DNA from: an uncultured Trueperaceae bacterium
GTDB taxonomy: Bacteria > Deinococcota > Deinococci > Deinococcales > Trueperaceae
Direction of reading: 5' to 3'
Assembly: GCA_963727505.1 (NCBI GenBank)
Contig: CAVSGP010000014.1
Span: 71,499 to 135,498, forward strand
Length of the DNA stretch: 64,000 nucleotides
Shown: positions 42,001-45,000 of the stretch, piece after piece
Position numbering within the stretch: the first letter of the stretch is position 1
How the letters are laid out: the number at the start of each line of letters is the position of its first letter
Program-made: the position numbers

Positions 42001-45000
42001 GTCCAGGAGGGCGTCGAGGCCCTGAAGCTCGGAGCGGAACAGCCGCATGGCCGAGCGCACCGGCTCCCGGTTCAGCGCGATCATGTCGCGGCTCATCCGG
42101 GGACTGCCCGACGCGACGCGCGTCAGGTCGCGGAAGCCCCCGGCCGCGAGCAGCATCGTCAGCTCGCGCTCGTCGCCGCTGCCCACGAGCGTGGTGAGTG
42201 CTACCGCAACGAGGTAGGGCACGTGGCTGACGGTCGCGACGAGGCGGTCGTGGCGGTCGGGGCCGACCCGGATGGGCCTTGCGCCGAGCGCTTCCACGAA
42301 GGCGTGCACGCGGTCGACCGCGGCAGCGTCGCTGCTCTCGTCGGGCGTGAGCACCCACACCGCGTTCTCCAGCAGGCCGGCATCGGCGTGCAACACGCCT
42401 GCGCGGTCGCTGCCGGCCATGGGATGGCCTCCGACGAAGTGGAGGTCGGAAAGCGCCGCCACCACTTCGGCCTTGACGCTCCCCACGTCGGTGACGATGG
42501 CGTCGTCGGCCAGGTGAGGGCGCATGCTCAGCGCCAGCGGGACGATCGACTTCGAGGGCGTCGCCAGCACCACCAGATCGGCCTCCCGCAGCCACGGCCC
42601 CACCTCGAGACGGGACTCGTCGATCACGCCCAGACCGCGGGCGGCGTCGAGGGCGGCCGGGTCCTGATCCAGACCGATGGTGCGGCGGGCCAGGAAGCGG
42701 TGTCGCACGCCCAGCCCGATCGAGCCGCCGATCAACCCCACGCCGGCGATGACGATGGTGTCGAACAACGGCGCCGGGCGCATGCTACAGGCTCTTCCCC
42801 AGCGCGCCGACGACGCCGCGAAGGCGCCCCATGAGGGTGCCGAACTCCGCGTCGTCGAGCTGCTGAGCGGCGTCGGACCGTGCGTCCTCGGGGGAGGGGT
42901 GCACCTCGACGATGAGTCCGTCGGCCCCGGCCGCGGCCGCCGCCAGCGCCAGAGACGGCACCAGATTGCGCCGCCCCGCGGCGTGGCTGGGGTCGACCCA
43001 CACCGGCAGATGGCTCAGTTCCTTGAGGACGGGCACCGCGCTGAGGTCGAGGGTGAACCGTGTCGCCGTCTCGAAGGTGCGGATGCCCCGCTCGCACAGC
43101 ACCACGTTGGGGTTGCCCTGGCTGAGGATGTACTCCGCGGCCTGCAGGTACTCCGCGATGGAGGTGGACATGCCGCGCTTGAACAGCACCGGTCTCTCGC
43201 TGCGTCCCGCCTCGGCCAGCAGGGCGAAGTTCTGCGTGTTGCGGGCCCCGATCTGCAGCATGTCCGCGGTGTCGGCGACGACCTCCACCAGCTCCGGTGA
43301 GGTCACCTCGGTCACGATCGGCAGGCCCGTGCGCTCGCGCGTTTCCCGGAGCAGGCGCAGCCCCTCCTCGCCCAGCCCCTGGAAGGAATAGGGACTGGTC
43401 CTGGGCTTGAAGGCTCCGCCGCGCAGGATGCGTGCACCGTGGCGGCGGGCGATGTCGGCCGCGGCGTCGAGCTGGTCGCGGCTCTCCACCCCACAGGGTC
43501 CCGCCGCGACCACGAAGGCACCGTCGCCGATGACGACGTCGCCGACAGCGATGGTGGAGTCGTCGTGCCGGAACTCACGGGACGCCAGCTTGTAGGGCTT
43601 GGTGATCCGCACCACCGTGTCCACGCCGTGCAGCGCACGGAGATGCTCGCGCACTTCCTCGGTGGGCGCGGGACCGATGGCGCCGATGAGCGTGCGCTCC
43701 TCGCCCTCGCTGACGTGGGGGCTGAAGCCCAGGGAGCGGATCTCGCCCAGAACGCGATTCACGGCCTCATCCGAGGCCTCCTTCTGCATCACGACAACCA
43801 TTCAGACTCTCCAAAGTCGGTCCGGCCGTCGTGGCCGGCAGGTGCTGCGTCGGTGGGTTGCGGCCGGCGTGCCCCTGCGGTGGCGAGCGTCGAGCTGTCG
43901 TTCGCTGGGTTGTGCTGGGTTCAGCGTGCCGCCGCGGGGGTGCCGTACGGGGTCGAGAGGCGATCGAAGACGTAGCCATAGCCATCGTCCACGGCACCAC
44001 CCCCTTGCAGCGGAAAACTCATGCCAGGGAGTCTACCAGAACCGCCGGCCGTGTCAAGGACGCCTCAGCGTGCGGGCGCGCCGCTGGACGCGCGATCGCC
44101 CGGTGCGGTGCGGGGCGCGTCGGCTCGGGCGCGACAGGCCTCCACCAGCATGCGGAACGGGGTGTGATGCTCGGGGTGCGTGTCCCAGCACATCTCGGGG
44201 TGCCACTGCACGGCGACCATGAAGGCGTCGCCGTGCGCGCCTTCATCGATCTCCAGCGCCTCGACGATGCCGTCCTCGCAGCGGGCCGTCACCTGCAGAC
44301 CCTCGCCGACGCGATCGACTGCCTGGTGGTGGAAGCTGTTGACGAACACGTCGGTGCTGCCGAAGGCGTTCGCCAGGCGCGAGTCCGGCGTGATCGCCAC
44401 GCGTTGCAGCGGCGCGCCGGTGACGTCCTTCTGCACGTGCTGGTCGGTATCCGGCACGGCCGGCAGATGCTGGTGCAGGCTGCCCCCGTGCGCCACGTTG
44501 ACGAGCTGGATGCCACGGCAGATGCCCAGGATGGGCTTGCCGAGCGCCCGGAAGGCGCGGTAGAGCGCCAGTTCGAACGCGTCTCGACGCCGGTCCACCG
44601 TGCCGAGATCTCGGTGCGGGCGGGCGCCGAACAGGTAGGGGTCGATATCGACGCCCCCCGTCAGGAGCAGGCCGTCGGCGCGCTCGGCGTACACCTCGGC
44701 CAGCGCGGCATCGACGTTGGGCGCGAGCAGGGGTACGGCGCCTGCCGACGTCAGCGCCAGGGCGTAGTTGTGACCCTGGATGGTGTCGTTGCGTCGCAGG
44801 CCGCGTTCGCGCGGTACCGTCCCGCTCGTCATCAGGATGACCGGTGGTGGCGTCTGGGCAGGCGTGGACATGGGCCGTAGCCTACATCTTCGACGTGCCG
44901 GCGGCCAGCGCTCGCGACGCGCACGGTCCCGTCGGTGCTTCGAGGGCCCCGCGCCGCCGGTGCGCGGGGGCGGTCCCGCCGGTGATGCTGGGACCCGACA

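What a model noticed while it worked through the whole genome (the two positions that open the first line are those of the whole stretch)
43921..44022. Sequence-conserved acidic Gly/Tyr leader peptide before the aroF-tyrA operon
An uncalled leaderless 33-codon ORF (minus strand) precedes DAHP synthase g02847 and prephenate dehydrogenase. It carries a conserved core of glycines and acidic residues ending in Tyr-Gly-Tyr, kept in frame at 7 to 27 codons from the start, and no intrinsic terminator follows. It is a candidate Tyr-sensing stalling peptide.
Evidence so far: 12 of 15 Trueperaceae loci (with this genome) encode the core from a start 6-7 nt behind a -10 box; insertions before the core keep the frame; 1 locus holds the same bases in another frame and 2 have a different peptide. 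Found by the genome-wide leaderless scan.
(Added by a program. Inside this text positions count along the whole contig: contig position 71,499 is position 1 of the stretch shown here. "Call 12" and the like, gene names such as g00115 and contig names such as C1 are that model's own, and its searches are not shown. The text may have been shortened before it was handed on; [...] marks where a part breaks off. The agent that wrote the report below was given it as the finding of a first reader that could run no searches.)

Follow-up and report, generated by a model that had tools for sequence, protein, structure and literature searches.

The report
Tyrosine-sensing leader with two starts
A tiny conserved reading frame in front of tyrosine-synthesis genes in one bacterial family probably lets ribosomes sense a shortage of tyrosine-loaded tRNA; it is unusual in hiding a second ribosome-binding site and start codon inside itself and in serving two different target genes.

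Summary
The ORF is real and conserved. A promoter-linked 33-codon frame precedes aroF-tyrA; its core occurs in 51 of 68 aroF upstream regions and 7 of 89 tyrS upstream regions of the family. Finding it on both targets points to tyrosine. GGRGGTGRY matches the 16S anti-Shine-Dalgarno, never uses the commonest Gly codon GGC, and lies 3 nt before a codon that is only ATG or GTG. That gives a second, in-frame start: M(D/E)DGYGY. The leaderless start is also kept in frame (57 of 58). Best reading: a ribosome-mediated attenuator sensing Tyr-tRNA, ON when ribosomes stall at the Tyr codons. Two tyrS copies fold as terminator switches. The output at aroF is unresolved: the Tyr-codon segment is complementary to the aroF start region (top 5% in 38 of 51 loci, weak in this genome), and a C-rich spacer could load Rho. 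Leaderless Tyr leaders before DAHP synthase and tyrS were predicted in Deinococcus deserti in 2014, and this scan found the same kind before metG and aspS2 of this genome. New variant of a known kind; no expression data.

The parts
44030..44057 (-). sigma-70-type promoter, TTGACA-16-TAGACT with extended TG
   Evidence: 10 of 12 matches; shuffles 0.0; TG extension in 52 of 58 core leaders
43921..44022 (-). leader ORF, long form (33 aa) from the presumed leaderless ATG at the transcript start
   Evidence: ATG 7 nt behind the -10 box in 53 of 58; in frame with the core in 57 of 58. Transcript start inferred, not mapped
43996..44004 (-). embedded Shine-Dalgarno GGGGGTGGT (family consensus GGRGGTGRY); also the 5' strand of a leader hairpin
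   Evidence: column table; this genome's 16S 3' end; strongest anti-SD pairing among 12 strict leaderless short ORFs of this genome, -14.9 against -4.3 kcal/mol for the next
43921..43992 (-). leader ORF, short form (23 aa) from the internal GTG: (M)DDGYGY...
   Evidence: this codon is GTG in 39 and ATG in 19 of 58, never another Val codon; in G070 and G101 only an SD-led start reads the Tyr codons
43972..43980 (-). sensing codons Tyr(TAT)-Gly-Tyr(TAC); a third Tyr codon lies at 43947-43945 in this genome
   Evidence: first Tyr is TAT in 53 of 58 although TAT is 7.8% of Tyr codons in this genome; single tRNA-Tyr(GTA) among 47 tRNAs
43936..43947 (-). C-rich partner strand that pairs with the SD/GTG segment in the ribosome-free leader
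   Evidence: folds; in this genome not clearly above shuffles (z -1.2, p 0.12)
43802..43920 (-). C-rich spacer (possible Rho loading site) with a short GC hairpin at 43838-43822 and the aroF SD GGAG at 43812-43809
   Evidence: C>G in 49 of 51 spacers against 49% of 1201 control upstream regions; this one is in the top 3.7%; hairpin seen in the genus alignment; rho present
42785..43801 (-). aroF, DAHP synthase with ferredoxin-like regulatory domain; its first ~15 nt are complementary to the leader core
   Evidence: register table
41689..42783 (-). tyrA, prephenate dehydrogenase with ACT domain, directly behind aroF

Best explanation
This is a ribosome-mediated attenuator that senses charged tRNA-Tyr. 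SHOWN: a promoter-linked ORF with conserved in-frame Tyr codons sits before aroF-tyrA or tyrS; it contains a near-perfect Shine-Dalgarno sequence and a second in-frame ATG/GTG four codons before the first Tyr codon. INFERRED: ribosomes load at the leaderless AUG or at the internal start. When Tyr-tRNA is short they stall at UAU-GGC-UAY, cover the core and keep the SD segment out of its hairpin, and the downstream gene is ON. When Tyr is plentiful they run through and the OFF state forms. At tyrS the OFF state is an intrinsic terminator in at least some genomes. At aroF my best guess (about 0.4) is pairing of the freed Tyr-codon segment with the aroF start region, with Rho polarity on the C-rich spacer as a follow-on. 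Direct Rho termination (about 0.35) is nearly as likely, above all in this genome. By part: Tyr-tRNA attenuator 0.8; internal SD and start used by ribosomes 0.7.
For: Targets: 39 of 44 GTDB-wide pattern hits lie before aroF and 3 before tyrS; a relaxed pattern gives 44 aroF, 6 tyrS and 13 unrelated of 63, and metagenomes 39 aroF of 43. Frame: 9 of 10 length classes other than 30 nt are multiples of 3 (about 4e-4 by hand arithmetic). Four of 7 loci that lost the leader have ATC in place of the ATG. SD: conservation starts sharply at position -12; the three codons are GGA 40/GGG 16, GGT 57, and GGT 40/GAT 14/GAC 4, never GGC, while the Gly codons inside DDGYGY are GGC in 53 and 44 of 58. Switch: predicted terminator pairing falls from 0.99 (ribosome at stop) to 0.00-0.06 in G010, and from 0.99 (no ribosome) to 0.37-0.43 in G122, when the stalled ribosome is assumed to hold the SD; in G122 it stays 0.98-0.99 if the SD is free. 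Anti-start helix: mean -21.2 kcal/mol over 51 loci in one register; top 5% against 250 control starts in 38 of 51; all 3 TCY leader variants go with a GAR codon in aroF, found in none of the other 48.
Against: No transcript, ribosome or reporter data. G011 shows no terminator switch (0.47-0.84); G087 and G089 gave no terminator and G086 and G088 only weak hairpins; G122 reads 0.58 with the ribosome at the stop. The anti-start helix is weak in this genome (-14.4 kcal/mol, 37th percentile). It forms in only 6-7 of 51 full folds and in 23 of 51 when the rest of the ORF is held open, never in G000. The genus swap test is not significant (p 0.08), one variable pair shows no covariation, and the 17 loci without the core keep equally complementary aroF starts. 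Ribosome position does not change predicted aroF RBS access (mean change 0.014). ATG/GTG alternation also fits pairing with a U of aroF codon 5 and the RNA polymerase pause consensus, so it does not prove initiation. In Corynebacterium glutamicum the Phe-Tyr-Phe leader before aroF did not respond to Tyr (PMC11802643, passage).
Confidence: 0.6

Rival explanations
1. Sequence-specific arrest peptide: G-G-G-A-V-D-D-G-Y-G-Y stalls or destabilises the ribosome through the nascent chain, perhaps with a small-molecule cofactor.
For: (D/E)DGY is kept through synonymous changes in tyrS copies that have little complementarity to their target (mean -6.2 kcal/mol). G101 carries EDGY twice plus YGY. Whole-codon insertions inside the core keep the frame. 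Early acidic pairs can pause or destabilise ribosomes (PMC11282234, passages).
Against: The glycine codons follow anti-SD pairing, not codon usage; G127 reads Arg-Cys-Asp there. Five loci of genus g24 lost the core and gained Tyr codons elsewhere; five other loci use an RRY peptide. The same paper says di-acidic residues alone are not sufficient. Arrest by free Tyr, as TnaC does with Trp (recalled), would switch on under plenty, the wrong sign for the folds.
Confidence: 0.15
2. Tyr-codon attenuator with a single, leaderless start; the SD-like segment plus RTG is an RNA polymerase pause (or an elongation pause) that couples the ribosome to the polymerase and is not used for initiation.
For: G-10, Y-1 and G+1 of the elemental pause (PMC12288461, passage) are met at the RTG in 58 of 58. 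The offset is 30 nt in 42 of 58. The leaderless start is under frame selection.
Against: The pause consensus does not explain conservation of all nine anti-SD positions. Offsets up to 123 nt exist. In G070 (also seen in 2 metagenome contigs) and G101 only an SD-led start reads the Tyr codons.
Confidence: 0.15
3. RNA-only element (T-box-like, riboswitch or protein-binding site); the ORF is incidental.
For: GGGTGGTGCCG resembles the T-box bulge sequence (recalled); codon choice is strongly constrained.
Against: No Rfam family matches; the one hit at E<=5 is Bcj14, 16.6 bits against a cut-off of 59. There is no room for a stem I between promoter and motif. The UGGN position is A in 18 of 58. Frame, start codon and Tyr content are conserved.
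Confidence: 0.06

Closest known systems
Putative leaderless leader peptides of Deinococcus deserti: Deide_18471 (DAHP synthase) and Deide_00051 (tyrS); de Groot et al. 2014, PMC4007540 (passages and supplementary table rows)
   Same: Leaderless AUG at the transcript start, short ORF with Tyr, same two target functions, same phylum; predicted attenuators, not tested in what I read.
   Different: No sequence similarity. The D. deserti DAHP leader has Phe-Phe-Tyr-Trp and the tyrS leader a single Tyr among arginines. None of 13 tyrS leaders seen in 20 regions from other families has the DDGYGY core or an SD as strong (best -11.8 against -14.9 kcal/mol).
Polycysteine leaderless sORF attenuator Ms5788A of Mycobacterium smegmatis (bioRxiv 10.1101/834739; abstract and passages)
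   Same: Leaderless sORF whose sensing codons pair with the initiation region of the next gene, so that a stalled ribosome frees it; no intrinsic terminator.
   Different: There the duplex is predicted to be very stable and the model was tested by mutation. Here it covers the start codon and first codons rather than the SD, is marginal in folds, and the ORF has a second SD-led start.
aroR leader (Phe-Tyr-Phe) before the aroF operon of Corynebacterium glutamicum (Neshat 2014, seen only as described in review PMC11802643)
   Same: Leader-peptide attenuation of a DAHP synthase operon.
   Different: Responds to Phe and not to Tyr according to the review; this leader has no conserved Phe and also serves tyrS.
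uORFC-13-1 motif before aroF in Acholeplasma (PMC8632094, passage)
   Same: uORF candidate before aroF.
   Different: Phe codons, ordinary RBS, intrinsic terminator.

Membership tests
Ribosome-mediated (leader-peptide) attenuator | Short translatable ORF between promoter and regulated gene | tested here: met
   translation itself inferred from frame conservation
Ribosome-mediated (leader-peptide) attenuator | Enrichment of codons for the pathway's amino acid | tested here: met
   at least 2 Tyr in 55 of 68, 1 in 5, none or no ORF in 8; 6.9% against 0.6% and 1.1% in the other frames
Classical transcription attenuator (trpL type) | Intrinsic terminator with competing antiterminator after the ORF | tested here: not met
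   none at this locus; 1 doubtful hit in 51 aroF leaders. Met in tyrS copies G010 and G122, not in G011
Translational attenuator (mycobacterial poly-Cys type) | Sensing codons pair with the next gene's initiation region, released by stalling | tested here: inconclusive
   complementarity in 38 of 51; helix in 6-7 of 51 full folds and not in G000; swap test p 0.08
Rho-dependent attenuator | C-rich loading site whose access depends on the ribosome; Rho present | tested here: inconclusive
   C>G in 49 of 51; rho present; predicted spacer accessibility unchanged between states, 0.41-0.42
Ribosome-mediated (leader-peptide) attenuator | Expression responds to amino-acid limitation and needs the ORF | not testable with these tools
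   needs reporters or profiling
Arrest peptide (TnaC/SecM type) | Amino-acid sequence conserved independently of codon choice | tested here: inconclusive
   not met for the Gly-Gly-Gly-Ala-Val part; partly met for (D/E)DGY; replaced in 10 of 68 loci
T-box leader | Stem I with specifier loop plus antiterminator bulge UGGN | tested here: not met
   no Rfam match; 18 of 58 break UGGN; motif starts 18 nt after the presumed transcript start

The most novel reading that the evidence does not exclude
A two-entry attenuator in which the 16S anti-SD of the stalled ribosome is itself a switch partner. A perfect SD inside a leaderless ORF starts a second, in-frame peptide and is the strand that the ribosome must hold to keep the gene ON. 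The same 30-nt module works as a transcription switch before tyrS and, by being antisense to the aroF start, as a translation switch before aroF-tyrA.
Probability: 0.25. Interest if true: 0.75.

Novelty: new variant of a known kind. Interest (0 to 1): 0.5.

Why it matters
It names the probable control of tyrosine supply in a family known mostly from metagenomes, and adds a Tyr-specific sensor; I found few of these described. It offers a natural test of open questions: whether leaderless and SD-led initiation cooperate on one ORF, whether SD pairing by a stalled ribosome can drive an RNA switch, and how a sensor module moves between genes and changes output. It is also a caution for small-ORF scans: a conserved 'Gly-Gly-Gly-Ala-Val' can be a ribosome-binding site read as protein.

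Tried and rejected
Sequencing runs: no RNA holder was listed, so no reads were laid. Rfam: no match. Pfam and NCBIfam: no family for the peptide. The exact peptide is not in the protein collection. No earlier scan finding on look-alike DNA. The search for related loci with aroF returned mostly distant phyla; these served only as control starts (29 usable; mean -8.6 against -18.4 kcal/mol for family starts with the same core). An out-of-frame ATG inside TAT-GG as a coupled start: rejected, its frame to aroF is scattered 22/16/13. A conserved cis partner as the reason for SD conservation: only 10 of 58 beat shuffles at p<=0.05, mostly in lower-GC genera; the shuffles keep C-richness, so the test is conservative. 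The anti-start helix as the sole reason for TAT: weakened, because all 15 Tyr codons in 13 tyrS leaders of other families are TAT too. The SD+RTG pattern as a general start signal in this genome: only 5 of 15 occurrences fall at starts from my crude gene caller, so this adds little. Direction of transfer between tyrS and aroF: the tyrS tree (46 rows, midpoint root, no outgroup) scatters tyrS copies over four branches; not decided. Literature: no paper held both 'Truepera' and 'leader peptide'; searches listed nothing describing this element, judged from titles and abstract starts except for the papers I opened. Most subscription papers are outside the library. Supplement file 1 of PMC4007540 was not searchable and file 3 was cut when stored.

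Full report
Observation. The ORF is at 44022-43921 on the minus strand, 33 codons, 7 nt behind a TAGACT box with a TTGACA -35 and a TG extension. The promoter begins just after the stop of a glutamine-amidotransferase-like gene, so the leader has its own promoter. A 119-nt spacer leads to aroF, then tyrA. No terminator, Rfam family or protein family matches.

Distribution. An aroF search of 128 family genomes gave the orthologues. I read 68 upstream regions (30 loci, 38), leaving out one unpublished genome and matches that lack the N-terminus. A core pattern RTG-GAN-GRN-GRN-(NNN)-TAY-GRN-TAY is met in 51 of 68. The pattern fixes first and second codon positions, so counts inside the core are conditional on it. 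The other 17 are: 4 loci of g18 and G108 with an RRY peptide; 5 of g24 with a decayed core and new Tyr codons; and 7 without a leader, 4 of which have ATC where the ATG stood. A GTDB-wide exact pattern gave 44 hits: 39 before aroF, 3 before tyrS and 2 chance hits inside a Chromobacterium gene that looks like ssb (label recalled). A relaxed pattern gave 44 aroF, 6 tyrS and 13 unrelated of 63; metagenomes gave 39 aroF and 4 unassigned of 43. Of 89 tyrS upstream regions, 7 carry the core; all 7 are among the 50 from genomes outside the aroF set, none among the 39 inside it. An eighth, G101, has a variant with EDGY twice. Tyrosine is what aroF-tyrA and tyrS share.

What is conserved. Across 58 leaders in 17 genera (kin, not independent), conservation starts abruptly 12 nt before the GTG/ATG and reads GGRGGTGRY. 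This is the complement of this genome's 16S 3' end with G-U allowed. The three codons there are never GGC, although GGC is 59.5% of Gly codons in this genome and is used in 53 and 44 of 58 at the two Gly positions inside DDGYGY. The next conserved codon is GTG (39; 9 genera) or ATG (19; 11 genera), never GTC, which is 42% of Val codons. So 'GGGAV' is best read as SD, spacer and start codon. The leaderless start is real too: 57 of 58 are in frame, over offsets of 24-123 nt. The exception, G070, and the variant G101 can read their Tyr codons only from an SD-led start. Among 12 strict leaderless short ORFs of this genome only this one holds such an SD. Two cautions apply. The same bases fit the RNA polymerase pause consensus in 58 of 58, and the R of RTG can also pair with a U of aroF codon 5.

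Sensing. Leaders are 6.9% Tyr against 0.6% and 1.1% in the other frames (where several promoter-linked ATGs existed the script took the Tyr-richest). The first Tyr codon is the rare TAT in 53 of 58. All 15 Tyr codons in the 13 tyrS leaders found in 20 regions from other families are TAT as well, so this looks like a phylum-wide feature of Tyr sensors.

Output at tyrS. G010 and G122 have a hairpin and U-tract after the leader, G011 and G101 likewise, G088 a weak one, G086 a very weak one; G087 and G089 gave none. In constrained folds the terminator of G010 opens when a ribosome sits at the first Tyr codon, or at either Tyr codon with the SD held; that of G122 opens only if the SD is held; G011 does not switch. 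Stalling thus means ON in two copies, which fits shortage sensing and not arrest by free Tyr. Footprints are my assumption.

Output at aroF. Ribosome position does not change predicted access to the aroF SD. A consensus fold of one subgroup paired the core with the aroF start. In a fixed register the core pairs with aroF from about -2 to +15 with one bulge, mean -21.2 kcal/mol. That is in the top 5% of 250 control starts in 38 of 51 loci, and better than synonymous recodings in 37 of 50. It would explain Asp-Asp-Gly as antisense to Val/Ile codons. Against it: the helix is weak in this genome (37th percentile), forms in 6-7 of 51 full folds and in 23 of 51 with the rest of the ORF held open, never in G000. 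The genus swap test gives p 0.08, loci without the core keep the same aroF starts, and tyrS copies keep the core with little complementarity. The alternative is Rho: the spacer is C-rich in 49 of 51 loci against 49% of 1201 control regions, and rho is present, but folds show no ribosome-dependent change in its access. I leave this open, about 0.4 against 0.35.

Comparison. De Groot et al. predicted 14 leaderless leader peptides in D. deserti, including ones for DAHP synthase and tyrS. This element is of that kind but unrelated in sequence. Its possible translational wiring resembles the tested mycobacterial poly-Cys attenuator. C. glutamicum aroR and Acholeplasma uORFC-13-1 are other aroF leaders, and a Shewanella aroF leader is listed as an attenuator sensing Tyr-tRNA in a table row of PMC2659441. 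It fails the intrinsic-terminator feature at this locus and the T-box features. My searches listed no description of this element or of an SD-led second start inside a leaderless attenuator ORF; the library lacks most subscription papers.

Verdict. A real, uncalled regulatory ORF and a new variant of a known kind. Interest 0.5, and 0.75 if the SD-holding, two-output model is confirmed.

Noticed in passing
L135, L117, L136, L137, L134, L139, L140 (genus g24 subgroup), end of leader ORF and spacer: A second Tyr motif (LTYIRP or TYTWP) followed by a conserved long helix of about 13 bp has appeared where the first core is decaying; it may be a replacement switch.
   Followed up: partly
L099, L113, L120, L098 (g18) and L102 (G108), before aroF: A different leaderless peptide with one Tyr (TAT) among arginines, like the tyrS leaders of family f2 and of D. 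deserti.
   Followed up: partly
L407-L426 (tyrS upstream, other families): 12 of 12 f2 regions and 1 of 1 f5 region have a leaderless Tyr ORF; all 7 f3/f4 regions have a leaderless tyrS and no leader.
   Followed up: partly
G000:C4, minus strand, before a cysS-like gene (minus-strand position 964750): Leaderless 18-codon ORF with two Cys codons, probably the Cys attenuator; the gene label is recalled from the N-terminus.
   Followed up: no
window 39597-40676 (-) and 45005-46715 (-): A MoaA-like radical SAM ORF (label recalled) and molybdate ABC transporter genes (permease match) flank the aroF-tyrA operon.
   Followed up: no
aroF start in all family loci: Codon 2 is Val in 50 of 50 family loci, whereas 11 of 13 GC-rich homologues from other phyla have Ile; Val is what pairs with the leader core. 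It may be one inherited change.
   Followed up: partly
core codon after RTG: The Asp-to-Glu change is always GAA (13 loci, 4 genera), never the common GAG, which would create a second SD-like GGAGGA. Unexplained.
   Followed up: no
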